NCBI GenBank assembly: GCA_963704165.1
Contig: CAVPHD010000003.1
Location: 192,001-256,000, forward strand
Origin: an uncultured delta proteobacterium
Lineage (GTDB): Bacteria > Myxococcota_A > UBA9160 > SZUA-336
Reading direction: 5' to 3'
Length of the DNA: 64,000 nucleotides
Part shown: one piece after another, positions 17,728 to 42,655 of the stretch
Numbering within the stretch: the stretch's first letter is position 1
Layout of the letters: each line of letters opens with the position of its first letter
Made by a program: the position numbers and the translations under genes
Notes under the pieces: generated by a model
Told to the model about the DNA's origin: nothing
What the model saw: only the letters and a program-made list of their open reading frames with translations
The model's database searches: none

Positions 17728-18822
17728 ATGGCAAGTCCTGAAGCGTCTCCAGAGGCTGAAGCGGTAGAGTCCGGTCCCACGATCACCGACGTGATCAAGA
17801 TCCTGCCCGAGCACGTCTATCACAACCCGACGAGCCTGGGCTTGATCTACTTCGCGCGCGACGCCGCGCTCTATCTGGGCTTGATCGCCCTGCTCGTGGT
17901 GGTCGAGTCGCCCTTCCTACTGGTCCCACTCTGGGTGCTCACCGCGCTCACCACGGCCGCCCTCTTCATCCTGGCGCACGACGCCGCCCATGACTCGCTC
18001 TTCGCGAGCAAGCGCCTGAACTATGTGATCGGGCAGATCTGCATGCTGCCGTCACTCCACGTCCTCGAGGCCTGGGTGCTCGGGCACAACCGGATTCACC
18101 ACGGGCACACGGTGCGCGAGGGAATGGACTACGTCTGGCACCCTGCGACGCCGGAGAACTACCGGTCGATGACGCCGACGCAGCGCGCGATGCACCGCCT
18201 GAAGTGGTCCTGGCTCGGCGCCGGCGTGTACTACGGCTGGGACATCTGGTGGAAGAGCATGATGAACTTCACGCCTCCCGCGAAGATCGCGGCGAACGTG
18301 AAGCGTGACCGGACGATCGTCTGGACGTACGCGGCCGTGCTGAGCCTGGTATTGCTCGGTGCCGGCGCATTCCAGTACGGCGGGATCGGCGGCGCGCTGT
18401 GGATGTGGACGAAGGTCTTCGCCGTGCCGTTCCTGCTCTGGAACTACGTGATCGGCATCGCCGTCTACGTTCACCACATCGCGCCCGACATCGCCTGGCA
18501 GAGTCGCCGCGAGTGGACTCGCTTCAAGGGCCAGATGGAGGGGACGACGATCCTTCACGTACCCGCGTGGATGAACTTCTTCATGCACAACATCATGCTG
18601 CACGTCCCCCACCACGTGGACATGCGGATTCCGTTCTACCGCCTGCCGGAGGCCTGCGAGGCGATCCGCAGCGGATACGGCGACGTCGTGCGCGAGCGGA
18701 GCTTCCAGCTTTCCGACTACCGGCGCACGACCCGCGTCTGCAAGCTGTACGACTTCGAGACGCACAGCTGGCATGGCTACGACGTTGCGAACGAGGCGCC
18801 CGAGCTAGTCACGCAAGCGTAG
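17728..18822 (+). CDS. Membrane fatty acid desaturase (delta-12/DesA-like)
   Basis: Three His boxes HDAAH, HNRIHH and HVPHH; IPFYRL; TM segments. Alternative start 17701. Confidence 0.88.
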
Positions 18823-20587
18823 CCCGAGCTCCTTGAGCTGAGCGTCATCGACGGCGCTCGGCGACTCCATGAAGCTGTCCTGTGCGCGCTGCGTTTTCGG
18901 AAAAGCGAGCACGTCCCGCAGGCTCTCGCCCCCGGCGAGCATCAGCGCGAAACGGTCGAAGCCGAATGCGAATCCGCCGTGCGGCGGCGCTCCGGTGTCG
19001 AGCGCGTCGAGCATGAATCCGAAACGCGCCCGTGCTTCCGCCTCGGAGTACCCGAGGATCTCGAGGATCTTGAGCTGCACGTCGGAGCGGTGATTTCGCA
19101 GGCTACCGGAGCCGAGCTCGACACCGTTCAAGACCAGATCGTAGTGCGTGGCCACGACGCTCCTCGGATCCGTGTCGAGCTTGTCGAGATCGCTTTCGAG
19201 CGGTGCGACGAACGGCATGTGCATGTAGGTCAGCTTGCCGCCCTCCCCCTCCTCGAAGAGCGGAAAGCCGACGACGAAGTGGGGATCCCACGCCCGGCCA
19301 TCGTATCGATCGAGCTTCTGACCGAGGTCGAGGCGTAGTCGGCCGAGCACGTCGGAGACGATCGTCTCCCGGTCCGCGCCGAACAGGATCACCGAGCCGG
19401 GTCGCAGACCGGGCCCGTGCACCGATCGCCGCCTTCTCGTCGTCGGAGAGGAACTTCGCGATCGGTGACTGCCACGTTCCATCGTCGCCGACCCTCACCC
19501 AGGCCAGCCCCTTGGCACCGAAGCCACGCGCCTGCTCGTTCAGCCGATCGAGCTCGCTGCGGGTGAGCGCACTCGCGTCGTGGATCGGCAGTCCGCGTAC
19601 GACACCACCCGCCGAGAGCGCGCCGGCGAAGACCTTGAACTCGCTTGCGGCGAGCAGGTCCGAGAGCTCGACGATTTCGAGCTGGATGCGCCGCTCCGGT
19701 TTGTCGGAGCCGTAACGCGCCATCGCGTCCGCGTACTCGATGCGCGGAAACGGACGCTCGAGCTCCACGCCGAGCACGTCGCGGAACGCGCGTACGGTCA
19801 GGTGCTCGAGCAGATCGAGCACGTCGTCCATGCCGACGAACGACAGCTCCAGATCGAGCTGCGTGAACTCGAGCTGCCGATCGGCGCGTTGATCTTCGTC
19901 GCGGAAGCAGCGCGCGAGCTGGAAGTACGAGTCGAAGCCCGCGACCATCAGCATCTGCTTCAAGATCTGGGGTGACTGCGGGAGCGCGAAGAAACTGCCG
20001 TGGTGCATTCGGCTCGGCACGAGGAAGTCACGCGCGCCCTCGGGCGTGGCGCGCGCCAGGATCGGCGTCTCGATCTCGGTCAGCCCGCGCTCGGCGCAAC
20101 CGAGCCTCATCGACTGCGCGAGTTCGTGGCGCACCCGGAGACGTCTCTGCATTGCCGGACGTCGCAGGTCGTGGATTCGGTACTTGAGACGACTGCTCTC
20201 GTCGAGCTGCACGTCGTCCTCGATCTCGAACGGCGGCGTCGTGGCCGTGTTGAGGATGCGAACCTCGTGCGCGATCAGCTCGACCGCGCCCGTCGGCAGG
20301 TTCGGGTTCACGACGTCCGCGTCCCTGCGGGCGAGCACACCCCGCACGATCAGCACCCACTCGGCTCGCACCGCCTGCGCCTTGGCGTGTGCCTCGGGCT
20401 CTGCGTCCGGCTTGAAGACGACCTGCGCGATCCCGCTCCGGTCGCGCAGATCTACGAAGATCACGCCGCCGTGGTCGCGCCGCTTTCGCACCCAGCCGCA
20501 GAGAACCACTTCGCGGCCGACGTCGCTCGGTCGCACCTCTCCACAGAAATGTGTTCTGCGCAGATCGCCGAGTGGATCGAGTTGCAA
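18805..20587 (-). CDS. aspS: Aspartate--tRNA ligase (probably non-discriminating Asp/Asn); one extra base near 19412
   Basis: N-part (RTHFCG, RRDHGG, TPEGARDF, ARCFRDEDQRADRQ) and C-part (YDLVLNGVELGSGS, PPHGG, FPKTQ) join if one base is removed from GCCC-GGT. Confidence 0.93.
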
Positions 20588-22819: not shown

Positions 22820-22836
22820 ATCTCCCCCCGAAACGC

Positions 22837-22873
22837 GAAGGCGCCTCCGGGCCTGGGGCCGAGAGGCGCCTTC
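22837..22873. terminator. Stem-loop downstream of the giant OMP gene (terminator or processing hairpin)
   Basis: GAAGGCGCCTC ... GAGGCGCCTTC, a perfect 11-bp stem about 20 nt after the 22895 stop; U-tail weak. Confidence 0.6.
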
Positions 22874-22894
22874 TTCAGTTCTCCGATCGCGCCA

Positions 22895-25800
22895 CTAGAA
22901 CGTGTAGCGAATCCGGAGCTCGGCCATGTCGCGATACAGAACCGGCGCGACGCCGCGGAAGACCGGGCTCTTGTAGTCCGAAACCGAGCCGTACTGCGCG
23001 ATCGGGTAGTACGAGCCCTGCTGCTTGTAGACGTGACCGAAGAACTGCGTGAACCCGATGCTCGTCGAGAACTTGTCGTTCCAGCGGTACGAGAGACCGG
23101 TGATCAACGCGCCCTGTGACTCCCAAGGTGCGTACAGGAGCGTCACGCGCGGAGCGAGGCGGTCCTGGAAGTAGCCGGTGAAGAACGTGAACGCGACGTT
23201 GCCGGTGATCGGAGCCCCCGCATACCCGTAGTTGCCGTCCTGACCACCCTCGCTGCCGTCGTAGTCCGGCAGGTAGCGCAGGAACATCTGCAGATTCAGG
23301 AAGAAGCTGCGGTTCGGGTTCAGGAAGTTGAAGAACGTCGGGCGATCGACGGAGACCGAGAGCACCAGCTCGTCGGTCTGCGACAGTCCCTCGTATTCGG
23401 TGTTGTTCGGGATCAGCTTGTTCGCCATCCACGAGAACTCGATGCCCCAGCTGGTCTTCGTGACGTCTTCGGCGAAGTCGAGACCGAAACCGAAGACGTT
23501 GCGCTTCTGGTAGTTGAAGACCATCTGGCGTCCGCCCTGCCAGAGGAAATCGCGGCGCCCGTAGCGGCCGTCACCGCCCGCCTTTCGGACCGGCAGGGTC
23601 TGCGTCGTCGCGCTGAGGATTCCCGCGACGCCTCTGCAGAAGACCGGTGAGCGAGGCGGCAAGCCGTTCGGGAACAGCGCGGCGAAGTTCTCCGAGCCCA
23701 CGCCTTCGTCGGCGCGGTACGGGCTGTACTGCACGCCGTCCTGGAGCGTGTCTCCGGGGATGCCGCTGCCGCAGAGGATGTTGTCGTCGGTGATCGGACC
23801 GGGAAGGTAGTCGTCCTGCCCGTCCCAGACCGCATCGCGGTTTCGGTCGAGATCGGCGCTGAGATCGCCGTCCAGGTCGCGACCGCGATTCGTCTGGCTT
23901 CCGAACTCCCCGAGCAGCGCATTGCGCTGCGCCACGCTCATCTGCACGTACTCCGGACCGTAGGGCGTGTCGATCGCCACCACCTGCGAGGCGAGCAGCC
24001 GGCGAAGCGTCGAGAGTCCCTCGGTCTGCTGCAGGTACTGCAGCTTCGCGAGATTCACGAGCCGGTTGACTCCGGTCCCGATCGGAGGCTGATTCGGGTC
24101 GCTGGGATTGTTGGGGTCGGCGACCGTGACGATCTCGACGGCGAAGCCGATCGGCATCGCGAGAACCAGCGACTTGCCCTCGGCCTTCGCGTCCCGCGGA
24201 TCGACGAGGACGCTGTTCACGCCTAGATAGCACCACTGCGACGAACAGCTCTCCTGTGGATCGTACGCGAGCAGGAAGTCCCGACCGGCAACTCGGGGAT
24301 CGGCCCCTCCGGGCACCGGAACGTCCACGATCTGGTAGTCGGCGGAGACGTTGGGATCCGACAGCGGCGCGGAGACGACGTCGAAATCGACCTCTTCGTC
24401 GTCGAAGACGTACTGGTTGCGAGCGAAGATGCCGTCCGGGCCGGCGATCGGATCGCCCGTCGCCTGGAGCGACGTATTGGACTGCGACCAGTAGCTGAGC
24501 TCCTGCAAGCTCTCCGGCGGATCGAAGACACGATCGGCGCCGATGATCTCGAGCGAGATCAGCAGCCGCTCGAAGTTCGCCGAAACCGTCTCGAGCGAGG
24601 TGCAGCCGAGGTTGAACGGGGTGGCGACGAGTCCCGCGTTCTCGGAGTTCATCCAGCGCGAACAGTATTCGCCGTCGATGTCGGAGTAGTCGATGTTCGC
24701 GAGGTCGTTCGGATCCTGGTTCGGGTCGATCAGGTTCCACTTGTTCAACGGGCTGTCGAGGTCGAGCGGGTTGTTCGGATCCGTGTTGAAGACGATCGCG
24801 CCGAACTTGTCGAGCATCTCCTGGTTGACGGTCCAGGGCATCGGCTCGATCCAGCTGTCCGCCTCGCGAATGTTGCCCGGCTGGATCTGGTACTCCGCAC
24901 GGCCGGTCGTCCCGAGGTTGATCACGTCCTGCGGCGTGAGCCCGAGGTACTCACCGCTCTCGATGTTCCCGACCGGCGACGGAGGGCTGTTCTGCACGCC
25001 CTGGCGCGTGAAGTCGGCATCGATGTCCATGCTCTGCTGCCCGTTGCGGCTGTAGTTCAGCCCGTACTGGTAGTAGAGCTTGTACTGGTTGTTCAGTCGC
25101 GTTCCGACGAGCGCACCGGGCGAGAGCGCCTTCAGGCCGACGAACTCCTGGGTCACCACGCTCGCGTCGGCGTTCATCAGGTCGATGCCGCCGAGCTTCG
25201 ACACGCCCAGCTCCGCGTCGCGCGTGAGATCCGTCGTGATCGAGGGATCGGCGGCCCAGAGCGCCTGCTGCTCGACGCTGCACGGCGAGGCGTAGGAAGG
25301 TCCGCAGCCGAGCAGGCTGGCCTGTCCCGGCACCAGGCTGACGCCGAGATCTTGATACTGGCCGTCCTGCAGGGCGAGCGGCTCGATCGCGAGGAACTGC
25401 TGCTTGAGGAAATCCATGTCGGTGCGGTTGATGACGCTGGTGCTGCCGTCGAGCTCGACGGCCTGGATCGTCTCGACACCGTCGAGGAGCACGGCACCGA
25501 GGGAACCGAGGCCGGAGATGATGTTCGAGAGCAGGCCGAAGTCGGTCGGGAAGTTCAGCCGGTCGAACGCGCAGAACCCTTCGTCCGAATCGAACGTGTA
25601 GGCGCACAGGGAATGGAAGAGCGTCTGGTTGATGTTCTGGAGCGCCGCCACCCCATCGGTGCTGCGCAGCGTCTGCTGTCCGTCGGGCGTGTCGGGCGGA
25701 TTCCAGAGCAGGCAGTTGCCGGCGCTCGGGAAGATGTTGTCGCCGGTCGTGTCGGCTCGTCCGTCCGGACCGACGGCCTGACCCTCGTCATTCGTGCGAA

Positions 25801-28393
25801 TCGTGCAGCCGGTGGAGGCATTTCGCGAGCCGACGGAGAGCGGCGCCCCCGTCACCGGGTCGGAGGTGCGCTCGTACTGCTGGACCAGATCGAGATAGAA
25901 GCCGTCGTCCCAGCCGTAGAAGTCGGAGATCGCGAACGTGAAGCGGTCCAAGCGCCCCTCGATGCGCGCGCCGAAGTCGAAGCGCTCGAACCCGGCATAG
26001 TCGTCGTAGGGGTTGTGCTCCCCGATCACACCGATTCCGGCGAGCCCGTTGGCCATCGCGCCGAAGCTCTTCAGGCAGACGATGTCGACCGCGGAACCCT
26101 CGCCGCACTTGCCGAGATCCGTCGGCTCGAAGCGGTTGAAGAGCCCGAGCACCTCGAGACGCAGATCCTCGACCGGACCCACGCGCATGAACATCTCCGG
26201 GGAGAACGTCATGCTGACGCCCCACTGCCCGACGCGCTGCTCCTCGAGCGGCGCGAAGATGCCGTTGCCGATGTCGAGCGGGTTGTTTCGATCCTGGTTG
26301 CGGAAGAGCTCCGTCTTGCCCCAGACCGTGATCAGCTTGCCGACGCGCGTGTAGACCTGGCTGTCCGCCATCTCGAACTCGAGGTAGCCCTCGGCAAACT
26401 CGTGCTCACGCTGGCTCGCGCCGTGGTTCCACTGCAGCGAATCGACGCTGTACTTGAGGTCGAGGTTCGACACCAGGTTGTCGTAGTTCTGGTACTCCCG
26501 GCGCTGGCCGGGCGAGTCGAAGTAGATCCCGTTGTCGCTCGCGCGCGGCCGGGCCGGCAGCGTGTTGTTCGGTCCGCCGTCCGCGTAGGATCGGAAGTCG
26601 GTCGCATCGAGCGGCTCGACCGTGGAGTCGAGAGGCCGAACGGTGAGATCGCCGAGCAGGCTCAGCACCTCGAACTGGACCCGCGCTTGCGGCGCGACCT
26701 GGCCGGCGTTCTGAGTCGGTGACGTGGTGTTGATCTCGATGCAGTTGCCGTCCCCGTTGACCCCGATGTTCAACGACGTGTTGTTCCTCGCGGTGGTGCT
26801 GCAGCCGATCGCCAGCGCCTGAGAGGTCAGGTCGCCGGCCGACGAGCCACAGGTCCCGGCCAACCGGTTGTACGTTCCGCCGGCAGCCGAACATCCCTGA
26901 TTGATCAGGAATGCATCGGTGTACACACCGTAGAGCTCGACGAGCTTCGTCGAGCCCGGGTTGCTCGCGCTCGGAACGTTGATCTTCGCGGTCAGCGAGT
27001 ACTTCGGACGCGCGACATCCGTCGCGGAGTTCCGGCCGAAGGTCGCGTCGAAGCGGTCCTCGTCCTCCGGGCCGGAAGCGGTGATCGGAGTCGAGAGCTC
27101 GTAGCCGGCCTGCAGGGCGCGATCGTTGTTGACGACGTAGGGCAAGTCGTCGGCCGTGTCGCGGATGCCGTCCGGACCGACGAAGAACGGATTGACCCGG
27201 TTGGAGGCGTTCGCCGCCGAGAAGACCGCCGTCCCCTCCGCGTCGTTGGTCTGCGGAAGGCCTCCGATCGTCATGACCAGCGTCTCGCCGAGCGCCTGGT
27301 CGTAGTGACCGATCGTGTCGAGCGCGCCACCGCCCGCGAAGTATCCATCGGGGCGAATCGGCGTGTTGATCGTCGCCAGGAACGGCCAGACCATGCTGCC
27401 GAGCTGACTCGAGCCCCACTTCGCGGTGAGCAGCTCGGGAGCCATGTCCTCGGCCAGGATCCCGAAGCGACTCACATCCGGGCGCGTCGCGAGGAGCGCG
27501 GGAATGTTCGCGTCGAAGGTCGTCTCCGGCGTGCCCAGGATCGCGTCCGCCTCCGCGGTCAACGCCGCCGCGAGCGCGGGATCGTCGGTCTCGCTCGCCT
27601 CCGCAAGCAGCGCCATGCGGTAGGCGTTTTGCGCGTTCGACAGAACGTTGCCGTTGATCAGCAGGCTCTGGATGCGCGTGTATTCGTCGTTTCCGATCCG
27701 GGGTCGTGCCGCGGCCGAAAGGCTCGCGCGAGTGAACGGATGGAAGGATCCCGCTCGGACCTCCCAGGTCTTGTTGCCCGTCTGGTTGTTCGGGTTGTCG
27801 AGCGGGGACTTGTTGTTCAGGTTGCAGAAGACCGCCAGCGGAAAGGGATTCGAGAAGACCCCGGCCGGATTCTCACAGTCGCGGTAGCGGCGGCCCGGGT
27901 TCAGCTCCTGCTGCCCCGGGACGAGCGAGCCGGGGCGGTACGTCTGCTCGAGCAGGCCCGCGAAGTACGGCGACTTGTTCTTGACGTCCTCTCGGAGCGA
28001 GAGCGGCTGCCGCACCGCCGAGCGCTGATCGTCCCCGTACGAATCGGCGCTGTTGAAGAGTCCGCAGGAGCGCGAGTAGATGCAGTCGTAGCTGATCAGG
28101 AAGCGCGAGAACAAGAACATCGAGTCGAACGGCCCGAAGCCGTCCGGGAAGGCGTTGAACTCGACCTCGGTCGAGAGCACGTGGCGCCAGCTCGACCAGG
28201 TCGCTCCGTTCAGCGGCAGCTCGGAACCGACGAACATGAGCCGCGACTCGTAGAAACCGTGGATGGAGAGCTTGCGTTCCCCCTCCAGTTCCCACTCGAA
28301 CGCCGCGGCCGTCCGCGCGACTCCGCTCCCGATCAACAGGATGCCGAGGAGCAGAGCGGCAGCATTTCCGGCTTTCAGCGTTCCCCTCATCAC
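22895..28393 (-). CDS. Giant outer-membrane protein, DUF1302-like, with large insertions (1832 aa)
   Basis: Sec signal (..ARTAAA/FEW); DUF1302-like blocks (EGYLEF..TRVGKLITVWGKTELFRNQDRNNPLD; RNVFGFGLDF..SWGIEFSW); C-terminal RIRYTF beta-signal; downstream of MMPL and YCF48-like genes. Confidence 0.75.
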   Translation of the reverse strand: MMRGTLKAGNAAALLLGILLIGSGVARTAAAFEWELEGERKLSIHGFYESRLMFVGSELPLNGATWSSWRHVLSTEVEFNAFPDGFGPFDSMFLFSRFLISYDCIYSRSCGLFNSADSYGDDQRSAVRQPLSLREDVKNKSPYFAGLLEQTYRPGSLVPGQQELNPGRRYRDCENPAGVFSNPFPLAVFCNLNNKSPLDNPNNQTGNKTWEVRAGSFHPFTRASLSAAARPRIGNDEYTRIQSLLINGNVLSNAQNAYRMALLAEASETDDPALAAALTAEADAILGTPETTFDANIPALLATRPDVSRFGILAEDMAPELLTAKWGSSQLGSMVWPFLATINTPIRPDGYFAGGGALDTIGHYDQALGETLVMTIGGLPQTNDAEGTAVFSAANASNRVNPFFVGPDGIRDTADDLPYVVNNDRALQAGYELSTPITASGPEDEDRFDATFGRNSATDVARPKYSLTAKINVPSASNPGSTKLVELYGVYTDAFLINQGCSAAGGTYNRLAGTCGSSAGDLTSQALAIGCSTTARNNTSLNIGVNGDGNCIEINTTSPTQNAGQVAPQARVQFEVLSLLGDLTVRPLDSTVEPLDATDFRSYADGGPNNTLPARPRASDNGIYFDSPGQRREYQNYDNLVSNLDLKYSVDSLQWNHGASQREHEFAEGYLEFEMADSQVYTRVGKLITVWGKTELFRNQDRNNPLDIGNGIFAPLEEQRVGQWGVSMTFSPEMFMRVGPVEDLRLEVLGLFNRFEPTDLGKCGEGSAVDIVCLKSFGAMANGLAGIGVIGEHNPYDDYAGFERFDFGARIEGRLDRFTFAISDFYGWDDGFYLDLVQQYERTSDPVTGAPLSVGSRNASTGCTIRTNDEGQAVGPDGRADTTGDNIFPSAGNCLLWNPPDTPDGQQTLRSTDGVAALQNINQTLFHSLCAYTFDSDEGFCAFDRLNFPTDFGLLSNIISGLGSLGAVLLDGVETIQAVELDGSTSVINRTDMDFLKQQFLAIEPLALQDGQYQDLGVSLVPGQASLLGCGPSYASPCSVEQQALWAADPSITTDLTRDAELGVSKLGGIDLMNADASVVTQEFVGLKALSPGALVGTRLNNQYKLYYQYGLNYSRNGQQSMDIDADFTRQGVQNSPPSPVGNIESGEYLGLTPQDVINLGTTGRAEYQIQPGNIREADSWIEPMPWTVNQEMLDKFGAIVFNTDPNNPLDLDSPLNKWNLIDPNQDPNDLANIDYSDIDGEYCSRWMNSENAGLVATPFNLGCTSLETVSANFERLLISLEIIGADRVFDPPESLQELSYWSQSNTSLQATGDPIAGPDGIFARNQYVFDDEEVDFDVVSAPLSDPNVSADYQIVDVPVPGGADPRVAGRDFLLAYDPQESCSSQWCYLGVNSVLVDPRDAKAEGKSLVLAMPIGFAVEIVTVADPNNPSDPNQPPIGTGVNRLVNLAKLQYLQQTEGLSTLRRLLASQVVAIDTPYGPEYVQMSVAQRNALLGEFGSQTNRGRDLDGDLSADLDRNRDAVWDGQDDYLPGPITDDNILCGSGIPGDTLQDGVQYSPYRADEGVGSENFAALFPNGLPPRSPVFCRGVAGILSATTQTLPVRKAGGDGRYGRRDFLWQGGRQMVFNYQKRNVFGFGLDFAEDVTKTSWGIEFSWMANKLIPNNTEYEGLSQTDELVLSVSVDRPTFFNFLNPNRSFFLNLQMFLRYLPDYDGSEGGQDGNYGYAGAPITGNVAFTFFTGYFQDRLAPRVTLLYAPWESQGALITGLSYRWNDKFSTSIGFTQFFGHVYKQQGSYYPIAQYGSVSDYKSPVFRGVAPVLYRDMAELRIRYTF

Positions 28394-28427
28394 GTTCCCC
28401 TCTCTGCGAGCGACCCGAATCTGGAAA

Positions 28428-31400
28428 TTATCCGATGCTTCCGACCGCGGACTTCACTTGCGTGGCACCCATGTCATGTTGCTCCGAAGACGCAGAGGGT
28501 GACGCTGAGAAGAACTTCGGCCGCAGGATCGAAACGCACGCCGGAACGAGAAAAACCGCGCCCAGCATGTTCATGCCCATCAAGATGCTCAGAAGTTGCG
28601 CCATCTCGGCTTGGAAGCGGAGATTGCTGAACGACCACACGACGATGCCCGCGATCAACGTCGTCGCCGTGAACGAGACGGCCATTCCGGTGGTCCGAAT
28701 CGCGCGGCGGATCGCCTCGTCGAGGTCGCCGCACCAGACGTATTCCTGTTTGATCCGGTCGGTGACATAGAGCGAGTAGTCTACGCCGATTCCGACACCG
28801 ACGGATTGGACCGGTAGCGTCTGGATCGTGAGCCCGGTTTCTCGCAGCGCCATGTAGGCGAGCGATCCCATCGTGGCGACGGCCAGGCTGAAGACCAGGA
28901 TCAGGCCGGACGACGGCGAGCGATAGCTGACCGCCACGAACGTCCAGCAGATCAGGAAGATCAGCACGATGTTCGCGACGTGTCCGCGCTCGACCTCTTC
29001 GTTCACGGCGGCGTACACACCCATGATGCCGCCGGCGAGCACGAACTCGGCGCCTCGCGTGTAGGTGTTCGTACGCTGGGGGTTGAACGAGGTGTCCTTG
29101 AACTTCGAGTTCTGGGTCCAGAGCTCGTAACGGCAGTAGTGGCGGCAGTACCGGATCGTCTGCGCGGTGATGTTGCCGTCGTCGTTCTTCCACTCCTCGT
29201 CGATGTAGTACACGCTGCGGGACACGATGTGGTTGACGAGATCGCCGACGGTCTCGAGACCGACCATCACGTCTTCCTTGGTGGAATCGACGGTCTCGAC
29301 CCGGTAGTCGTACTCGGCCGAGAGCTTCTCGCCGATCTTGCCGAGCCTCTGGGCATTCAGGCCGAGATCCTTTCTCATCCGATCGGTGAGGCTGATCTCG
29401 GGAAGCTTCTTGAGCGACAGCGCCTTGATCGCCGCGATCACGTTCTTCTCGACCTCGGCCGGATCGACCGACTCGGTCCAGCGATCGATGCGGACGGCAT
29501 CCTTCCCCTGGTAGCCGGTGATCTTCTGGTCGTCGTTGATGTCCGCGACCTGCACGACCATCTCGCTGTGTCGGGGGAAGAGCACCGGACCGAAGAGGTA
29601 GTAGGCGGCCGAGAGAATCCCGCCCTTGTCCTCGACGAGGCGCACGCTGATGCGCCCCATCGGGTTGGCCTCGATGAACTCCTGCGCATAGTGGATCGCG
29701 CGCTTGATCGTCCTGCCTTTGTGATCGCGGAAGAAGAACGTGATGTTCGCGTCCTCCGCGTCCTCGGTCAGGAACGGGCGCAGGAACCCCGGGATGCTGC
29801 TCCGCTGAAGCTGGAAGATGATCCCGCCGACGGTCTGCGCGGAATCGGGCACGAACCCCCACTTCGGATCCGCGTAGTGATTCACGAGCCAGTACTGCTT
29901 GATGATGTCGACGAGCGATATCGTCGCGCCCGGATCGACGTGCTTCTTCATCCAGCGCTGCATCGCTTCCATGCGCTGGAGCACGAGCCCGTCGGAGCTT
30001 GCGCTCTTGCCGTCGCCATCGACGAAGATCGTCATCTGGTCGACACCACCGAACTTCTCGCCGAGCTCCGCGGTCGCGACGTTGAACGGATGATCGGGCC
30101 AGAAGATCGGAACGCCCGGACGGCTCTCGCCCACCGTCGTGTGGAAGAGCACGTAGTAGGTCGCCACCATCAACGCGAGAGCGGTTCCGCCCGTGAGCGC
30201 GAACTTGCTGACCCGCCCGGTGGCGAGGTTGCCGGCGAAGGTGAGGAAGGCGTTCATCCAACGCGGCGTGAAGTGCTCGTAAGCGTGCGGTGGCGGCAGG
30301 TACGCGATCATGATCGGGTGGAGCAGGATCACGTTGAAGATGATCGCGATGACCCAGAACGAGCCGAAGATCGACAGATCTCGCATCGTCTGGATCGTCG
30401 TCAGGAAGCACACCGCGAGACCCGCGGCGTCGGTGATGATCCCGAGCATCCCGGGCAGCATCAGCTTGGCCATGGCGGTGGTCGCGGTCTCGACCTTCGC
30501 TTCGTTCATCTCCTCCGGCGTCATCTTGCGACCGAGCTTCCGCTCGAGCGCGCCGCACTCCATCTCGTAGTCCTCGAAGAAGCGCTCGGCCATCTGGATC
30601 GTGTGCGAGATCGAGCGCGCCGTGATCAAGAGCGGAATCACGAGGATGAGCGGATCGAGCGTGATCCCGAGCCAGGCGCAGAAGCCCATGCCCCAGATCG
30701 CGGTCGCGAGTCCGGCGACCATCGGAATCGCCACGCCGTGCAGCCGGCGGAAGTAGGCGAGCAGCAGGAAGAACAGCGAGACGATCGTGAGCAGCAGGTA
30801 GTAGCCCATCTCGAACGCCTGCGAGATCACGTAGCCCGTCGCCATCGGAGCGCCCGAGATGAAGATCTCCGCGGTTCCGTCCGCTTCCTCTTCGGCCTTC
30901 AGATTCTGCAGATAGTTGAAGAGCTCGATGTAGGCTTCGCTGTTGTCGAGCCGGTGCGTGATGAAGCCGGCCGAGACGAGACAGGCGCGGTGATCCTTCG
31001 AGACGAGGTTGCCGTAGATCATGCCCGGGTTCTCGAGCACCGTCTCTTTCAGCTTGGCGAGATCCTCGGGCTCTTCGGGGATCTCCTCGAGCAGCGGGAC
31101 GGCCTCGATGGCGCCGTCGGGCTCGATGTGGATCACGCGCGTGTTGATGTGAGAGAGGCTCCGCACCTGGTAGTGATTGACGTTGGGCGCCTTGTCGAGC
31201 TTGTCCGTGACGCGCGAGACCTTCTCGAGGAAGTCGTAGTCGTAGATCTGCCCCTCTTTCTTGATCACCGCGATCGCGATGAACGAGGCCGATCCGAACT
31301 TGCCCGAGAACTTGTCCTGCGAGTGGATGTACGGGTGCTCGGGGTAGGTCTTCCGCACGTTCGCGTCGACGCGGAAGCGCGCCTTCACGCCGAGCAGGAG

Positions 31401-31607
31401 CTCGCCCTCGCCGGTCTCGCTCTGCGAAGCCGTGTAGTTGTAATAGGCGGCGTTCACGAGCGGAAACGAGAAGAAGACGCCGATGCTGAGCAGAGTGATC
31501 AGCGTCGCGAAGCGATTTCGCATGATCATCCGGCCAAAGCGCATCGAGAACGCGCTCTCCGGCAGGTTCTCTTCGACGGGACCGCGCTGCGGATTCTGGT
31601 CGGACAT
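28428..31607 (-). CDS. MMPL/RND family transporter with an enlarged second periplasmic domain
   Basis: Two repeats of 1+5 TM helices; ARSISHTIQMAERF, GIITDAAG, GVGIGVDYSLY, SNLRFQAEM; start MSDQNP 2 nt after the upstream stop. Confidence 0.9.
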   Translation of the reverse strand: MSDQNPQRGPVEENLPESAFSMRFGRMIMRNRFATLITLLSIGVFFSFPLVNAAYYNYTASQSETGEGELLLGVKARFRVDANVRKTYPEHPYIHSQDKFSGKFGSASFIAIAVIKKEGQIYDYDFLEKVSRVTDKLDKAPNVNHYQVRSLSHINTRVIHIEPDGAIEAVPLLEEIPEEPEDLAKLKETVLENPGMIYGNLVSKDHRACLVSAGFITHRLDNSEAYIELFNYLQNLKAEEEADGTAEIFISGAPMATGYVISQAFEMGYYLLLTIVSLFFLLLAYFRRLHGVAIPMVAGLATAIWGMGFCAWLGITLDPLILVIPLLITARSISHTIQMAERFFEDYEMECGALERKLGRKMTPEEMNEAKVETATTAMAKLMLPGMLGIITDAAGLAVCFLTTIQTMRDLSIFGSFWVIAIIFNVILLHPIMIAYLPPPHAYEHFTPRWMNAFLTFAGNLATGRVSKFALTGGTALALMVATYYVLFHTTVGESRPGVPIFWPDHPFNVATAELGEKFGGVDQMTIFVDGDGKSASSDGLVLQRMEAMQRWMKKHVDPGATISLVDIIKQYWLVNHYADPKWGFVPDSAQTVGGIIFQLQRSSIPGFLRPFLTEDAEDANITFFFRDHKGRTIKRAIHYAQEFIEANPMGRISVRLVEDKGGILSAAYYLFGPVLFPRHSEMVVQVADINDDQKITGYQGKDAVRIDRWTESVDPAEVEKNVIAAIKALSLKKLPEISLTDRMRKDLGLNAQRLGKIGEKLSAEYDYRVETVDSTKEDVMVGLETVGDLVNHIVSRSVYYIDEEWKNDDGNITAQTIRYCRHYCRYELWTQNSKFKDTSFNPQRTNTYTRGAEFVLAGGIMGVYAAVNEEVERGHVANIVLIFLICWTFVAVSYRSPSSGLILVFSLAVATMGSLAYMALRETGLTIQTLPVQSVGVGIGVDYSLYVTDRIKQEYVWCGDLDEAIRRAIRTTGMAVSFTATTLIAGIVVWSFSNLRFQAEMAQLLSILMGMNMLGAVFLVPACVSILRPKFFSASPSASSEQHDMGATQVKSAVGSIG

Positions 31608-31609
31608 GC

Positions 31610-33088
31610 TCACTCCCCCGCGCCGGTCGTCGGGATCTGCTCGCGTTTGGGCAGGATCTCGAACCAGTTCAATCCAGAGTCGGTCGAGCGCAGTACGTTT
31701 CCGCCCGCGCCCACCATCCAGCACACGTTCGGCGTTCCGCACGTCACGTCGCGGAAGTAGCCGTGCTTGTCGGCCGGGAATCGGCCCTTGCCCTTGCCGG
31801 TCTCGTCGCCCAGACGGACGAAGGTGGCTCCACCGTCGTCACTGATCCGGCGAATGCCCTTCTCGCCGACGACGATCAGGTTGCGATCCGCGAACGCGCC
31901 CGAAAAGAGCGCCTGCCTCGAGCCGCTCGGCAAGTACGTCCAGGTCCGGCCGCCATCGGCGGAGCTGAGCAGGACGCCGCCGAGCCCCGTGATCATGCCT
32001 TGGTCGGGATCCTTGAACTTCACGTCGAAGAGGAACGGGGTCTCGACGACCTGGATCCGAAGCGCCGGCACCGGCGAGAGCTTTCGGTCCGCGAACGCCT
32101 TCATGTCGATGCCTTCTTGATCGAGCGGCGTCGCGTTCTTGATCTTGATGCGATCCTGGTTGATGCCTTCGTTCTCCAGGAACTTCTGGATCTCGTCGGC
32201 GCGTTCGTCGGCGAGGAAGGTATCGCCACGGGCGCGCAGCTCGTCGGCGGTGACCATGCCCTCGATCTCGATTCGAAGGTAGGGCTTCTGCTCGAGCACC
32301 TTCGTCGCGGCGAAGATCTGCTCCCACTTGTCCTTCGGAACCTTCTTCTCGTTCTTCTCAAAGACGATTTCGTCGAACTTGACCGTGCCCACGATCTGGC
32401 CGCGATCCCAGTTCTCGCCGCCGTCCTCGGTCCGGTAGATGTGGCCGTACTCGCCGGCCATCCAGCCGCGCTTCTCGTCCACGAAGAAGACGTCGTTCAG
32501 GAAGATGTCGTCGTAGATCTTCTCGCCGCGTTCGAAGGCTTCGAGCTCGTCGTCGCTCAGGTACTTGAAGCTCGGGTGGTCCTCGGTGAGGAGGAAGGAC
32601 CGGTCCTGCCAGTTCTTGCCGCCGTCGTTCGTGTAGTAGCGACCGCCCCAATCACCGACGGCCCAGGCCGTGTTCGCCGTGACGGCCGTGATCGCGAACA
32701 AGTGCTGCGAGGGCTTGCGCGGGATGCTCTGCAGCTCCCAGGTGTCTCCGCCGTCGGTCGTGTGGATCACGAATCCGCGTCGGCCGACGGCCCAACCGTT
32801 CTTCTCGTCCGCGAAGTCGATGTCGTAGATCGACTGGTCGGTCATCCCGTCGAGCTTTCGCCAGCTCTTCCCACCGTCGAGGGTGCGGTAGATGGCGCCG
32901 AAGTAACCGGCGGCCCACAAGTGGTCCGCTCCGATCGCGGTCACGGCGTAGAGATCGTCGGGGAGATCGATCTCTCCTTCCGCGTACTTCTCTTCGTACG
33001 ACTCCTCCATGCAGCCGCTCGAGAGGAACGCGACCAATCCGAGGCAAGCGAGAGCGCGCACTCCGCGCACGACGAACCAGCTGTTCAA
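31610..33088 (-). CDS. YCF48-like BNR-repeat beta-propeller lipoprotein with inserted OmpA-like domain
   Basis: Lipobox LSSGC; repeated T/S-x-DGG-x-T/S-W Asp-boxes; internal IEIEG..LADERA..IQKFL..GI..DRI segment. Confidence 0.85.
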   Translation of the reverse strand: MNSWFVVRGVRALACLGLVAFLSSGCMEESYEEKYAEGEIDLPDDLYAVTAIGADHLWAAGYFGAIYRTLDGGKSWRKLDGMTDQSIYDIDFADEKNGWAVGRRGFVIHTTDGGDTWELQSIPRKPSQHLFAITAVTANTAWAVGDWGGRYYTNDGGKNWQDRSFLLTEDHPSFKYLSDDELEAFERGEKIYDDIFLNDVFFVDEKRGWMAGEYGHIYRTEDGGENWDRGQIVGTVKFDEIVFEKNEKKVPKDKWEQIFAATKVLEQKPYLRIEIEGMVTADELRARGDTFLADERADEIQKFLENEGINQDRIKIKNATPLDQEGIDMKAFADRKLSPVPALRIQVVETPFLFDVKFKDPDQGMITGLGGVLLSSADGGRTWTYLPSGSRQALFSGAFADRNLIVVGEKGIRRISDDGGATFVRLGDETGKGKGRFPADKHGYFRDVTCGTPNVCWMVGAGGNVLRSTDSGLNWFEILPKREQIPTTGAGE

Positions 33089-33344
33089 TGCCCCTCCCCG
33101 TCGAAACCCGCGGCGCGTCGCACCGCTGCAAAATGCGAAGACGAACCAGCAAACCGGCGCGCAAGTCGCAGAGCCTCCCCAAGGGGAGAGTTCATCGATC
33201 TCGATGACCGGTGGCCGTTTCTATTACGGGGGTGAAGCCGGTGTCAAGCATCGGGCCCGATCCGACACACGGATGTGCAGCTTTTGCGCAAGAAGCCGGG
33301 GCCTCGAGGCGACTCCATGATGCGTCGCGTCTAGAATCCGCCGC

Positions 33345-37968: not shown

Positions 37969-38084
37969 CCCGTCTCCACTCCGATGCGCAAGTTCGCATC
38001 GAAGCTATCGGGGAGGCTCGCACCGAAGTTGAGAGCGCGGGTCACCCATCGCCGCGATTGGCGAGGCTGTCGCGTTGCCGGCGA

Positions 38085-39010
<926 letters not shown>

Positions 39011-39033
<23 letters not shown>

Positions 39034-39886
39034 GCTTCGTCCCCACGCCGCCATCGGTGAAGATCTCGAGCAGGAGTGCGTGCGGCACGCGCCCGTCGAT
39101 GATGTGAGCAGCGGTCACGCCGCGCTCGAGCGCGTGAACCGCGCACTCGAGCTTGGGAATCATGCCACCCTTCACGGTGCCGATCCCGATCGCGTCGCGA
39201 ACCTGTGCTTCGCTCATCTGCGCGATCAGCGTCTTGTCTTCGTCGAGCACGCCGACCACGTCCGTCAGCAGGATCAACTTCTCGGCCGAGAGCGCTTCGG
39301 CGATCGCGCCTGCGGCGGTATCGGCGTTCACGTTGTAGGTCGCTCCCGCACCATCGACGCCGACGGGCGCGATCACGGGGATGAAGCCGTCCTTGGTCAA
39401 CGTGCGAATCAGCGAGACGTCGACGCGCTCGGGCGTCCCGACGCGGCCGAGGTCGCGCCCGCCCGGACCGAGCAGCTTGCGCACGCGCAGGAAACCGCCC
39501 GAATCCTTCCCGGTCAGTCCGATCGCCCGACCGCCGGCGTCGCCGATCAGCGACACGATCTCGGCGTTGATCTGACCGCCGAGCACCATCTCGACCACTT
39601 CCATGGTCTCGTCGTCGGTCACGCGCACGCCATCGACGAACTCGGACTGCTTTCCGAGGCGCGTGAGCATCCGCCCGATCTGCGGCCCCCCGCCGTGAAC
39701 GATCACGGGCCGCAGACCGATGAACCGGAGCAGTGTCACGTCGGTGGCGAACGACGACTTCAAGGCGTCGTTCTCCATCGCGGCGCCGCCGTACTTGATG
39801 ACGACCGTCTTGTCGCTGAATGTGCGGATGTACGGCAGCGCCTCGACGAGGATCTTCGCCTTGCGGATCAGCTCTTCCATGTCCAT
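39011..39886 (-). CDS. argB: Acetylglutamate kinase
   Basis: [37 protein letters not shown]. Confidence 0.96.
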
Positions 39887-41202
39887 CTAGAGGATGAACC
39901 GGGAGAGTTCCCGGTCACCCGCGATGTCGGCGAGGCTTTCGCGCACGCGCGCGCCGTCGAAGACGACCGAGGTACCGCCGAGATCGGGCGCCTCGAAGAG
40001 CGTCTCGTCGAGCAGGCGTTCGAGCACCGTGTGGAGTCGCCGCGCGCCGATGTTCTCGGTGGACTGGTTCACGAGCGCGGCGATCCGCGCGATCTCGCGG
40101 ATCGCGTCCGGCTTGAACGACAGGGTCACGCCCTCGGTCGCCAGGAGCGCCTCGTACTGCTTCACGAGCGCATTGTGTGGCTCCTCGAGGATCCGCACAA
40201 ACGCCGCCTCGTCGAGGTTCTCGAGCTCGACGCGGATCGGAAAACGACCCTGCAGTTCCGGAATCAGATCGGACGGGCGCGAGGTGTGAAACGCCCCGGC
40301 GGCGATGAAGAGCACGTGGTCGGTTCGCACGGTTCCGTGCTTGGTCTGTACGCTCGTGCCCTCGACGATCGGCAGCAGATCACGCTGCACGCCCTCGCGC
40401 GAGACGTCCGGACCCCCGTGCCCTTCGCGGCGGGCGATCTTGTCGATCTCGTCGATGAAGACGATTCCGGTCTGCTCGACGCGCTGCACCGCCTTCTCGC
40501 GGACGGAATCCGGATCGAGCATGCGAGCGGCTTCGTCGTCGCGAAGCAGCTCGCGCGCCTGCGCGACCTTCACGCGCCGCGCCCGCGTCTTCTTCGGCAG
40601 GAGCCCCCCATCATGTCCTTCAGCGCGACGCCGATGTCCTCGACGCCCGGCGGCGAGAAGATCTCGAGCCCGGTTCCCGCGCGCTCGGGCAGGTCGATCT
40701 CGACTTCTCGCTCCTCGAGTTCGCCGGCGCGAAGCATCTCGCGCATGCGCTCGCGCGTGGTGTCGGGCGAGGAGCCCGCACCGGGTTTTCGCGGGAAGAG
40801 CGCATCGAGCAGCCGCTCCTCGGCAATCCGCTCGGCGGAGGCGCGGACCTTCTCCATCTCCTCTTCGCGCACGAGCTTCATGCCGACCTCGACGAGATCG
40901 CGAACGATCGACTCGACGTCCCGGCCGACGTAGCCGACCTCGGTGAACTTCGAGGCTTCGACCTTGCTGAACGGCGCCGCCGCGAGCTTCGCGAGGCGAC
41001 GCGCGATCTCGGTCTTGCCGACGCCGGTCGGCCCGATCATCAGGATGTTCTTCGGCTGGATCTCGTCCCGGAGCTCGCCCTCGACCTGCTGCCTTCGCCA
41101 GCGGTTTCGCAGCGCGATCGCGACGGCCCGCTTCGCGGCGTTCTGACCGACGATGTAGCGGTCGAGCTCCGACACCACCTCGCGCGGGGTGAAGGTCTTC
41201 AT
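39887..41202 (-). CDS. hslU: ATP-dependent protease ATPase subunit; one base missing in a G-run near 40604-40609
   Basis: [13 protein letters not shown] and [11 protein letters not shown] in one frame; [35 protein letters not shown] in the other. Confidence 0.93.
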
Positions 41203-41747
41203 GACTCGAGCTCCTCGACGGTGATCTGGTCGTTCGTGTACAGGCAGATCTCGGCGGCGATGCGCAGCGCCCGTTCGGCGATCTCGCGCGCGGAGAGCTC
41301 GGTCGCATCCATGAGCGCCCTCGCGGCCGCGAGCGCGTACGGGCCGCCCGAGCCGATCGCCGTGACGCCGCTGTCGGGCTCGATCACGTCGCCGTTGCCG
41401 GAGATCACCAGCAGGTCCTGCGCGTCCGCGACGATCAAGAGCGCCTCGAGACGCCTCATCATCCGGTCGGTACGCCAGTCCTTGGCGAGCTCGACCGCGG
41501 CGCGGCGCAAGATCCCGCCACGCTCCTCGAGCTTGGCCTCGAATCGCTCCGCGAGCGCGAACGCATCGGCCGTGGAGCCGGCGAAGCCCGCGAGGACTCT
41601 TCCACCGCGCAGGCGCTGGATCTTGCGCGCGGTCCGCTTCATCACGGTGGTGCCCATCGTGACCTGACCGTCTCCGGCGATCACGACGCGACCGCCGCGG
41701 CGGACGGCGACGACGGTGGTTCCATGGAACTCGACGGACTTCGTCAT
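41199..41747 (-). CDS. hslV: ATP-dependent protease peptidase subunit
   Basis: HGTT N-terminal nucleophile, [21 protein letters not shown]. Confidence 0.96.
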
Positions 41748-42655
41748 GCTTTCTCGGTTCCCTTGGCGCGAGGGTGCGCCTGGCGATAGACCCGCGCCAG
41801 GCGCTCGGCCGAAACGTGGGTATAGCGCTGAGTCGTGGAGAGTCGCTCGTGTCCGAGCAGCTCCTGGATCGCGCGAAGGTCGACGTCGGCATCGAGCAGG
41901 TGCGTGGCGTAGGAATGGCGCAGCGTGTGCGGGCTCGCCGGTCGGGCGATCCCCGCCACGAGCATCCTGCGGCGCAGGATCACGCGCACGCCGCGCTCGG
42001 ACAGCGCGAGACCGCGCGCGTTCGTGAAGAGGGGCTTTGCGAGCAGACCCTGGGGTTCGCGGAGACCGAGCCAGGCAAGGAGCGCTTCGCGCGCCTTCGC
42101 GGGCACCGGAACGATCCGCTCCTTGCTGCCCTTGCCGAGCACACGGAGCTCCCGCCGGTCGGCGTACCAATCGCGAACGCGCAGGCGAGAAAGCTCGCCG
42201 ACGCGCAGGCCGGTGCCGTAGAGCAGCTCGAAAAGAGCGCGGTCGCGGACCGCGAGTCGAGGCGCCCGGTCCCGCTCCTCGGCTTCGACCAGGGTCTCGC
42301 AGTCCTCGGCCGAGAGTGGCGCCGGCAGCCGTCGCTCTGCCTTCGGCCCCGGGAGTCCCTCGGTCGGATCGGCCACGCGGTCGCCGCCGCGCACGCGGAA
42401 GCGGAAGAACGCGCGCAGCGCGGCGAGTCGGCGATTGCGCGTGGAGGGCTTGTGCGTCCGGTGAAAGCTCGCGAGGTAGGAACGGACTGCGAGCGCGTCG
42501 ATCTGGTCGAGTCCGCCACTTCGCGCGCATTCGGGTCGCTCGGCCAGCCGCGCCGCCTCCGAGAGATACGCGCGCAGCGTGTGTTTCGAGAGTCCACGCT
42601 CGGCCTCGAGATGGCGTGAAAATGCGGCAATCGCGCGAGCGTCGGCGCTCGTCAC
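41744..42655 (-). CDS. xerC: Tyrosine recombinase XerC
   Basis: [40 protein letters not shown]; canonical trmFO-xerC-hslV context. Confidence 0.9.

What the first reader, a model, noticed from the sequence alone, without database searches (positions are those of the whole stretch)
22895..33088. Elaborated trans-envelope system: YCF48-like lipoprotein + MMPL + giant DUF1302-like OMP, without DUF1329
Seen: a three-gene operon (gaps of 2 and 34 nt) ending in a strong hairpin. Known: DUF1302/DUF1329/YCF48-like/RND clusters recur beside hydrocarbon, aromatic and steroid catabolic genes and are thought to move hydrophobic compounds across the envelope. Unusual here: every component carries an extra module, the usual DUF1329 (LolA-like) gene is absent from the operon, and the neighbours are purN and a divergent UbiB kinase rather than catabolic genes. 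Inference: a cell-wall-anchored lipid trafficking machine with a large surface domain, possibly a core envelope function in this lineage.
Basis: partly seen in the sequence, partly recalled or inferred. Interest (0 to 1): 0.72.

Follow-up and report, generated by a model that had tools for sequence, protein, structure and literature searches.

The report
Giant capped barrel with free twin
In a class of uncultured Myxococcota, the outer-membrane channel of a likely lipid-type transporter carries a predicted surface cap of about 1,360 residues with no structural match found, and in this family the cap is also encoded as a separate, channel-free, likely secreted protein that likely keeps exchanging sequence with it.

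Summary
The operon is real (gaps 2 and 34 nt). The 1,832-aa protein misses the DUF1302 cut-off itself, but 10 of 22 relatives pass and a 980-aa relative folds as an 18-strand barrel. Two loops (562 and 801 aa) hold three quarters of the protein. The same two loops, joined without the barrel and given a signal peptide and a dockerin-like tail, are encoded elsewhere in this genome and in 11 of 24 family relatives. That copy folds as one confident body (pLDDT 92, pTM 0.93) with no PDB or viral match. Trees, site patterns and shared indels show barrel-borne and free caps grouping by genome in patches, which points to repeated gene conversion. DUF1329 is missing only from the operon. Two unlinked paralogs are sisters of genes that flank this barrel or this YCF48 in other families. 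The MMPL insert contains an acyl-carrier-like domain without the conserved serine. The OmpA-like insert keeps the Arg but not the Asp, so wall anchoring is doubtful. The system is class-wide and in a housekeeping slot. Verdict: new variant of the AmeABCD/DUF1302 kind; cargo and direction are untested. The scan noted this operon before in another genome (e1-942540).

The parts
33218..33247 (-). Conserved sigma-70-like promoter candidate, TTGACA-N18-TAGAA(A/C)
   Evidence: Present upstream of the gene in 5 of 5 regions inspected; not listed by the consensus scan; function untested
31610..33088 (-). YCF48-like beta-propeller lipoprotein, 492 aa, lipobox Cys26 (AmeC-like)
   Evidence: PSII_BNR 114 bits; lipobox Cys in 18 of 18 orthologs aligned; single copy in 34 of 41 genomes
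32054..32377 (-). OmpA/Pal-like insert in the propeller (about residues 238-345)
   Evidence: PF00691 26.8 bits against cut-off 27.2; weak match to Pal structures, E 0.08; Arg 18 of 18, Asp 3 of 18; absent from three paralogs aligned
28428..31607 (-). MMPL/HAE3-like RND pump, 1,059 aa (AmeD-like)
   Evidence: PF03176 59.5 bits; TIGR00921 80.9 bits, far below its 351.9 cut-off; GIGVDY motif in the second half; 10 hydrophobic segments by a simple scan
29058..29630 (-). Insert in the second predicted periplasmic domain (about residues 660-850), shared in variable form across the class
   Evidence: Present in all long homologs aligned, absent from two short ones
29223..29474 (-). Acyl-carrier-protein-like domain (residues 712-795) nested in that insert, only in the operon-type pumps
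   Evidence: Profile of 15 orthologs hits PDB ACPs, best E 2.3e-5, and most of the 56 listed hits are ACPs; no Pfam PP-binding hit for any member; Ser at the attachment position in 1 of 15
22895..28393 (-). Giant outer-membrane protein, 1,832 aa, signal peptide, C-terminal Phe; remote DUF1302 homolog (AmeA-like)
28085..28300 (-). Barrel block 1 (predicted strands 1-3, residues 32-103)
   Evidence: Strands mapped from the model of relative P0054
26399..28084 (-). Cap part 1: 562-aa insert after strand 3, inferred extracellular
   Evidence: residues 187-622 are 50% identical to the barrel-free paralog
25910..26398 (-). Barrel block 2 (predicted strands 4-9, residues 666-828); holds the weak PF06980 match
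23507..25909 (-). Cap part 2: 801-aa insert after strand 9, inferred extracellular
   Evidence: residues 842-1621 are 59% identical to the barrel-free paralog; 20 of the protein's 22 Cys lie in the two inserts
22895..23506 (-). Barrel block 3 (predicted strands 10-18, residues 1630-1832)
   Evidence: class-restricted profile
22836..22875 (-). GC-rich hairpin between the giant gene and purN; terminator or mRNA-stabilising stem, untested
   Evidence: -32.1 kcal/mol; similar stems in relatives

Best explanation
The operon encodes three of the four kinds of part of a likely AmeABCD-type transporter that would move hydrophobic, lipid-like cargo across the envelope: an MMPL-family pump, a YCF48-like lipoprotein, and a predicted 18-strand outer-membrane barrel whose two long loops are predicted to fold together into a surface cap that is also encoded on its own elsewhere in the genome. 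Shown: the gene set, the homologies, the class-wide spread, the barrel-free copy, and the patchy grouping of barrel-borne and free caps by genome. Predicted: the barrel fold (from a 980-aa relative) and the one-body cap fold (from the free copy). Inferred: the fourth part is supplied in trans by two unlinked DUF1329 (LolA-like) proteins, one serving the barrel (G000:C12:45851-47401) and one the propeller and pump (C1:292077-293441 or its close paralog); they would shuttle cargo through the periplasm. Also inferred: the cap is a non-enzymatic, disulfide- and calcium-stabilised binding surface over the pore, and the likeliest job is capture and handling of external lipid nutrients. The free, signal-peptide- and dockerin-like-tail-bearing copy would be a secreted or surface-tethered second binder whose specificity is kept matched to the barrel's cap by repeated gene conversion. 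The serine-less acyl-carrier-like insert would be a docking or acyl-binding module, not a covalent carrier.
For: Homology: 10 of 22 barrel-bearing relatives pass PF06980; the Atlas places relative P0054 in DUF1302 clusters at 0.97-0.98; its model has 18 long strands, pLDDT 91, and its best full-length match is AlgE, TMt 0.46-0.49, as reported for DUF1302 (PMC13499233, passages). Cap: the free paralog lacks all three barrel blocks and folds at pTM 0.93; no His is conserved at 90%. Conversion: monophyly of free copies is rejected (p-AU 3e-35 for 33 of 72 rows; p-AU 0.0012 for the five syntenic copies under a mixture model); shared indels between G000 and G005 run 17 by genome, 6 by paralog, 0 other; one tract (441-560) groups by genome in the close pair G008/G010 (6:1:0) while its flanks group by paralog (3:45 and 9:111). 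DUF1329 in trans: the best homolog of the C12 gene lies convergent to a giant barrel in 11 of 13 non-family genomes with a match; a DUF1329 precedes the YCF48 ortholog in 7 of 12 non-family loci; the tree makes this genome's two orphans sister to these groups (SH-aLRT 94 and 85). Two predicted complexes for P. putida, DUF1329 with the barrel and DUF1329 with BNR plus RND, fit this (PMC10866462, section 12). Lipid nutrients: 49 acyl-CoA dehydrogenase domain matches in 3.87 Mb; up to 5 barrel paralogs per genome with variable caps in other families; homologous genes are needed for growth on Tween 20 and butyl stearate in P. putida (passages). LolA and LptD are present, so it need not replace Lol or Lpt.
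Against: The window protein fails the PF06980 cut-off and was never folded whole, being over the size limit. No catabolic gene or regulator flanks the operon; the housekeeping slot and conserved promoter fit an envelope-building role as well. The one deletion study reads AmeABCD as an exporter (PMC6394551, abstract and passages). Synonymous sites gave no clear conversion signal, and no identical DNA run between the paralogs exceeds 37 nt, so the exchange is old or the signal is partly convergence. The DUF1329 sister relationships are under the 95 support mark, and the b-type subfamily is multi-copy. G009 (93% complete) has no MMPL in the operon and no close ortholog was found. Free copies were found in only 11 of 24 family relatives, one of them broken, so they are dispensable or unassembled.
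Confidence: 0.5

Rival explanations
1. The machine exports one of the cell's own envelope lipids to the outer membrane, held on the wall by the OmpA-like insert, with the cap acting as a lid or release site.
For: Fixed slot among dnaK, argG, aspS and purN, single-copy YCF48-OmpA; conserved promoter-like site; MMPL-family pumps export lipids (established knowledge); pleiotropic mutants and a proposed cell-wall export role (10.1101/072470, passage); ACP-like insert.
Against: The OmpA Asp is kept in only 3 of 18 rows. No squalene-hopene or oxidosqualene cyclase was found in this 84% complete genome. Multi-copy barrels with loops varying from 180 to 562 and 309 to 846 aa and a free copy of the cap are hard to explain for a single own lipid. 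The barrel was not found in 4 of 27 class genomes that are at least 85% complete.
Confidence: 0.25
2. Whatever the pore carries, the cap is mainly a target of phages or predators, or an adhesin or lattice subunit. The free copy is then a matched decoy, a lattice partner, or a donor cassette for varying the cap.
For: [quoted passage not shown]
Against: The paralogs are only 55-61% identical in the cap, loose for a decoy. No recent identical tracts. No phage or binding data exist.
Confidence: 0.15
3. The free copies are independent, repeated duplications of the cap, or the by-genome similarity is convergence or alignment bias, and there is no gene conversion.
For: The tail module is abundant (4-19 matches per genome in 15 of 41 genomes), and some free copies carry other tails (Dockerin_1, IPTL-CTERM-like). 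Free loci outside the genus are not syntenic. Synonymous patterns are flat.
Against: Within the genus the free gene sits between the same neighbours in G000, G005, G008 and G010, with the downstream flank also shared in G007, and has a homologous junction. The third, control pattern of indels is 0 in all 5 quartets. The trees of the two inserts conflict with each other.
Confidence: 0.1

Closest known systems
AmeABCD of Castellaniella defragrans (DUF1302 + DUF1329 + COG4447/YCF48-like + HAE3 RND; PMC6394551, abstract and passages seen)
   Same: The same four kinds of protein are in the genome, three of them in one operon; RND of the MMPL/HAE3 type; barrel homologous to DUF1302.
   Different: Barrel 1,832 aa against 605; pump 1,059 against 787; propeller 492 against 316 and with an OmpA-like insert; DUF1329 unlinked and apparently two paralogs; housekeeping rather than catabolic-island context; a barrel-free copy of the cap exists.
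DUF1302/DUF1329/BNR/RND sets of Shewanella, Kangiella and Pseudomonas (10.1101/072470, 10.1101/2020.07.04.188060, PMC10866462, PMC13499233; passages seen)
   Same: Split clusters are already known (P. stutzeri and P. putida carry barrel plus DUF1329 apart from BNR plus RND); 18-strand barrel predicted; AlgE is the nearest solved fold.
   Different: Here the split leaves DUF1329 out and joins barrel, propeller and pump. No giant loops, ACP-like insert or free cap is mentioned in the passages read.
Gene conversion among outer-membrane protein paralogs, such as Helicobacter bab/hom and Brucella omp2 (search listing only)
   Same: Patchwise exchange between surface-protein paralogs.
   Different: As recalled, those paralogs are all membrane-anchored barrels in pathogens. 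Here one partner is a barrel-free protein made of two non-adjacent loops, in free-living uncultured bacteria.
Secreted or surface binders paired with outer-membrane transporters, such as HasA/HasR and SusD/SusC (recalled, no call)
   Same: A separate extracellular binder could feed or flank an outer-membrane channel.
   Different: Those binders are unrelated in sequence to their channel; here the binder is a copy of the channel's own cap. Works-like analogy only.

Membership tests
DUF1302 (PF06980) | Score at or above the curated cut-off (23.2 bits) for this protein | tested here: not met
   No hmmscan hit; 16.7 bits, E 0.004 in the genome search. Filed as a remote homolog, not as a PF06980 member.
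DUF1302 (PF06980) | Homology through relatives that pass the cut-off | tested here: met
   10 of 22 barrel-bearing relatives pass, up to 60 bits; many of the rest are fragments. Block profiles hit this genome's PF06980-positive proteins at E 7e-38, 1.5e-11 and 0.005. Atlas score 0.98.
DUF1302 (PF06980) | 18-strand outer-membrane beta-barrel, AlgE-like | tested here: met
   Model of relative P0054 has 18 long strands, pLDDT 91; AlgE TMt 0.46-0.49; all 18 map onto the window protein. One preprint gives both 18 and 16 strands for the family.
DUF1302 (PF06980) | Signal peptide and C-terminal aromatic residue | tested here: met
   N-terminal hydrophobic stretch ending AAA and C-terminus RYTF read from the sequence; no predictor was run.
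AmeABCD-type four-part RND system | All four genes in one cassette | tested here: not met
   Three in the operon; DUF1329 unlinked. In other families the parts are split differently.
AmeABCD-type four-part RND system | All four kinds of protein encoded in the genome | tested here: met
   PF07044 83.8 and 144.1 bits for the two orphans; tree.
AmeABCD-type four-part RND system | HAE3-family RND pump | tested here: inconclusive
   PF03176 passes; TIGR00921 is the best NCBIfam hit but at 80.9 against 351.9 bits; no tree with AmeD itself was built.
AmeABCD-type four-part RND system | COG4447/YCF48-like propeller | tested here: met
   PF14870 114 bits against cut-off 27.
AmeABCD-type four-part RND system | Physical complex of DUF1329 with barrel or pump | not tested
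AmeABCD-type four-part RND system | Transport of hydrophobic compounds | not testable with these tools
   No cultured member or assay here.
OmpA-like peptidoglycan-binding domain | Pfam OmpA cut-off | tested here: not met
   26.8 against 27.2 bits, E 7e-6.
OmpA-like peptidoglycan-binding domain | Asp and Arg that bind diaminopimelate (roles recalled from Pal/OmpA) | tested here: inconclusive
   Arg 18 of 18; Asp 3 of 18 and shifted by two residues against Pal.
Acyl carrier protein | Sequence profile similarity to ACPs | tested here: met
   Best E 2.3e-5 against PDB sequences; no single member hits Pfam PP-binding.
Acyl carrier protein | Conserved phosphopantetheine-accepting serine (DSL) | tested here: not met
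   Ser in 1 of 15 rows, Ala in the window protein.
Known folds for the cap | Structural match in PDB or BFVD | tested here: inconclusive
   Searched as one 1,182-residue model only; single domains were not folded apart.

The most novel reading that the evidence does not exclude
Two non-adjacent loops of an outer-membrane barrel have grown into an autonomous domain of about 1,200 residues with a new fold. The cell makes that domain twice, once on the pore and once as a free or surface-tethered protein, and keeps the two matched by recurrent gene conversion because they must recognise the same thing (cargo, each other or a phage). That would be a self-derived scavenger or decoy for a transporter, an arrangement not found in the searches made here.
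Probability: 0.35. Interest if true: 0.82.

Novelty: new variant of a known kind. Interest (0 to 1): 0.62.

Why it matters
The DUF1302/DUF1329/YCF48/RND system is widespread, has no solved barrel structure, and its cargo and direction are disputed (export of a wall component, efflux of terpenes, uptake or hydrolysis of fatty esters). This lineage offers handles. A soluble, barrel-free copy of the surface cap can be expressed, crystallised and screened for ligands without membrane work. Two DUF1329 paralogs that track the barrel and the propeller separately test the shuttle model. An acyl-carrier-like insert in the pump hints at acyl cargo. It is also an unusually clear natural case of a discontinuous loop domain being freed from a barrel and then co-evolving with it. 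The same set marks one class of uncultured Myxococcota.

Tried and rejected
Pfam and NCBIfam scans of the giant protein gave nothing. A profile comparison of A2 with this genome's canonical DUF1302 was weak (probability 53%, E 1.4e-4, 53 columns). Fold searches of the cap model found no match: Foldseek PDB none at E 0.001, VIA best Z 4.0 on a small helix bundle, BFVD none. An Atlas search with cap part 2 gave no usable hit. These blanks do not prove a new fold. No cap relative was found in viral contigs (0 of 125 candidates confirmed). No sequencing run was listed for the operon, which says nothing on expression. Synonymous-site quartets were uninformative. An enzymatic cap was considered; no His is conserved at 90%, so it was set aside but not excluded. 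Replacement of Lol or Lpt was set aside since LolA and LptD are present. Protein 1 and the query were out of frame and are disregarded; one search repeats the latter correctly. Rows dropped: 10 of 82 (fragments and long branches) before the AU test; 20 of 82 used; 53 of 82 had enough of insert 1. Literature searches: DUF1302 (18 listed), DUF1329 (19), PF06980 (2), PA3923/PA3922 (15), Myxococcota + dockerin + beta-barrel (0), gene conversion + outer membrane protein (15), UBA9160 (16). No title or abstract start described this giant form or the free cap; most of these papers were seen as listings only, subscription journals are not covered, and no supplements were read.
Full report
Observation. 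The window is G000:C3:192001-256000. The first matches PSII_BNR strongly and OmpA just under cut-off; the second matches MMPL; the third matches nothing in Pfam or NCBIfam. A hairpin follows (-32.1 kcal/mol) without a clean U run, and purN comes next on the same strand. A TTGACA-N18-TAGAA site upstream is kept in 5 of 5 regions inspected.

What the giant protein is. It scores 16.7 bits on PF06980, below the cut-off. A search of 1.84 billion representatives with its last 1,101 residues gave 434 hits at E 0.001, of which 150 were listed. Full-length relatives run from about 920 to 2,200 aa and share three blocks. Ten of 22 barrel-bearing relatives scanned pass PF06980, and the Atlas puts P0054 among DUF1302 clusters. 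The AlphaFold model of P0054 (92-row alignment, pLDDT 91, pTM 0.90) has 18 long strands. Its hits are outer-membrane barrels, with AlgE the best full-length match at TMt 0.46-0.49, in line with passages of PMC13499233. Mapped on the window protein, strands 1-3, 4-9 and 10-18 are separated by inserts of 562 and 801 aa; in 71 other rows these loops measure 180-467 and 309-846 aa. Since barrel termini are periplasmic (established knowledge), loops after strands 3 and 9 face outward; this is inferred. The protein is thus a remote DUF1302 homolog that fails the family's own cut-off.

The free twin. The same genome encodes a 1,371-aa protein at C3:480152-484267 with a signal peptide, residues matching 187-622 (50%) and 842-1621 (59%) of the giant protein joined by a short linker, none of the barrel blocks, and a 167-aa TSP3-like and cysteine-rich dockerin-like tail. 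Of 82 collected sequences covering insert 2, 41 carry barrel blocks and 41 do not; 34 of the 41 match the tail, and a few others are fragments or have other tails. Free copies were seen in 11 of 24 other genomes of the family, one broken. The query did not reach other families at all (0 of 16), so their state is untested. Residues 24-1205 fold at pLDDT 92.3 and pTM 0.93 from 70 sequences, so the two non-adjacent loops are predicted to form one body that needs no barrel. No structural match was found, with the caveat that it was searched whole. Conserved residues are mostly Cys, Gly, Pro and Asp.

Exchange between cap and twin. On the insert-2 tree the two forms interleave, with at least 9 changes forced by well-supported branches. 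The insert-1 tree also interleaves them but differently. Monophyly of free copies is rejected (33 of 72 rows, p-AU 3e-35), also for five syntenic copies of the genus under a mixture model (p-AU 0.0012). In the genus the free gene keeps its neighbours and junction, which argues for one origin there. Informative sites between G000 and G005 run 60 by genome, 36 by paralog and 4 other, and indel blocks 17, 6 and 0. In the close pair G008/G010, one tract (441-560) groups by genome 6:1:0 while the rest groups by paralog; it includes a shared 5-6 residue insertion. Against: synonymous patterns are flat and identical runs reach at most 37 nt. I read this as old, patchy gene conversion, likely but not formally tested.

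The missing DUF1329. The genome has 20 PF07044 matches. In other families the giant barrel often lies convergent to a DUF1329. The best homolog of this genome's orphan at C12:45851-47401 is that neighbour in 11 of 13 non-family genomes with a match; in the other two the barrel gene sits at a contig end. The YCF48-OmpA gene is single-copy in 34 of 41 genomes and holds the same slot near dnaK, ubiB, the GGDEF gene and aspS across the class. In 7 of 12 non-family loci a DUF1329 precedes it, and none of the 12 shows an MMPL or barrel beside it. The nearest MMPL homologs there stand apart. A tree of 38 DUF1329 proteins makes the C12 clade sister to the barrel neighbours (SH-aLRT 94) and C1:292077 sister to the YCF48 neighbours (85). 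So the four kinds of part are class-wide and variously linked; this family gathered propeller, pump and barrel (13 family genomes plus one further record; G009 lacks the pump there) and left the DUF1329 genes outside. Split clusters are already known in Pseudomonas, and AlphaFold work suggests DUF1329 joins either the barrel or the BNR-RND pair (PMC10866462 section 12). I could not run a complex prediction.

The other inserts. The pump has an insert at about 660-850 in its second predicted periplasmic domain, shared in variable form across the class. In the operon-type pumps it holds an 84-aa segment whose profile finds acyl carrier proteins (best E 2.3e-5), with Ser at the attachment site in 1 of 15 rows and no Pfam hit. 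The propeller's insert resembles Pal; the Arg is kept in 18 of 18 rows and the Asp in 3 of 18 (their roles are recalled), so wall binding is open.

Range. Named records are Myxococcota or delta-proteobacterial MAGs. The block-3 profile hits 23 of 27 other genomes of the class and 0 of 123 from other classes of the phylum sample at E 1e-20; 32 of 41 relatives have a hit below 1e-30 with the single sequence. I take the class to be GTDB's UBA9160 (renamed Vahlivitia in 10.64898/2026.07.10.737566, passages); this is a guess from recall, and no call names the class.

Mechanism. Shown: parts, homologies, range, free copy, mosaic pattern. Predicted: barrel and cap folds. Inferred: a proton-driven pump (GIGVDY kept) and its propeller partner exchange hydrophobic cargo with the barrel through LolA-like shuttles supplied in trans, and the cap binds cargo outside. 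I favour handling of external lipid nutrients: 49 acyl-CoA dehydrogenase matches, several barrels with different caps per genome in other families, and fatty-ester growth defects of homologs. Export of an own lipid remains a strong rival given the housekeeping slot and the readings in 10.1101/072470 and PMC6394551. The free cap may be a second binder, a decoy or a lattice partner.

Verdict. A real, class-wide, strongly elaborated variant of a known but poorly understood system. Interest 0.62.

Noticed in passing
window 18805-20587; 38005-39054; 39887-41892: aspS, argF and hslU each appear split over two frames; relatives have aspS as one ORF of about 600 aa. Likely assembly indels; the three operon genes are unbroken.
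   Followed up: partly
G000:C3:479219-480151 (L053:3220-4152): A PrsW-family intramembrane protease gene (PF13367, 65 bits) starts directly after the free-cap gene and keeps that place in G005, G007, G008 and G010; possibly co-transcribed.
   Followed up: partly
G000:C1:182873-191927 (L056): A second, complete cluster: divergent DUF1329, YCF48 without OmpA insert, 1,056-aa MMPL, small lipoprotein and a 759-aa DUF1302 barrel with small loops. Its MMPL insert holds a different segment that looks helix-hairpin-helix-like (recalled, untested).
   Followed up: partly
L072:408-15066: Four giant-barrel paralogs (1,232, 1,242, 947 and over 929 aa) in a row around one DUF1329 gene.
   Followed up: no
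L085:4921-10326 (G020:C103): Three tandem free-cap variants of 601, 383 and 765 aa, each keeping different pieces of the cap.
   Followed up: no
L017:8622-16191 (G009); L016:9677-15149 (G005): G009 has YCF48 directly before the barrel with no MMPL; G005 has a second barrel copy, in two frames, away from the operon.
   Followed up: no
   Followed up: partly
G000:C3:134569-136098: A 509-aa protein matching residues 1138-1371 of the free cap protein (46%), that is the tail plus the last stretch of the cap.
   Followed up: no
G000:C4:35059-38079 and C4:446922-451060: Orphan 1,006-aa MMPL paralog (38% over the full length) and a further YCF48 + MMPL pair without barrel.
   Followed up: partly
G000:C3:487534-494199: A 2,221-aa RHS-like ORF near the free-cap locus, judged from its N-terminal sequence only.
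   Followed up: no
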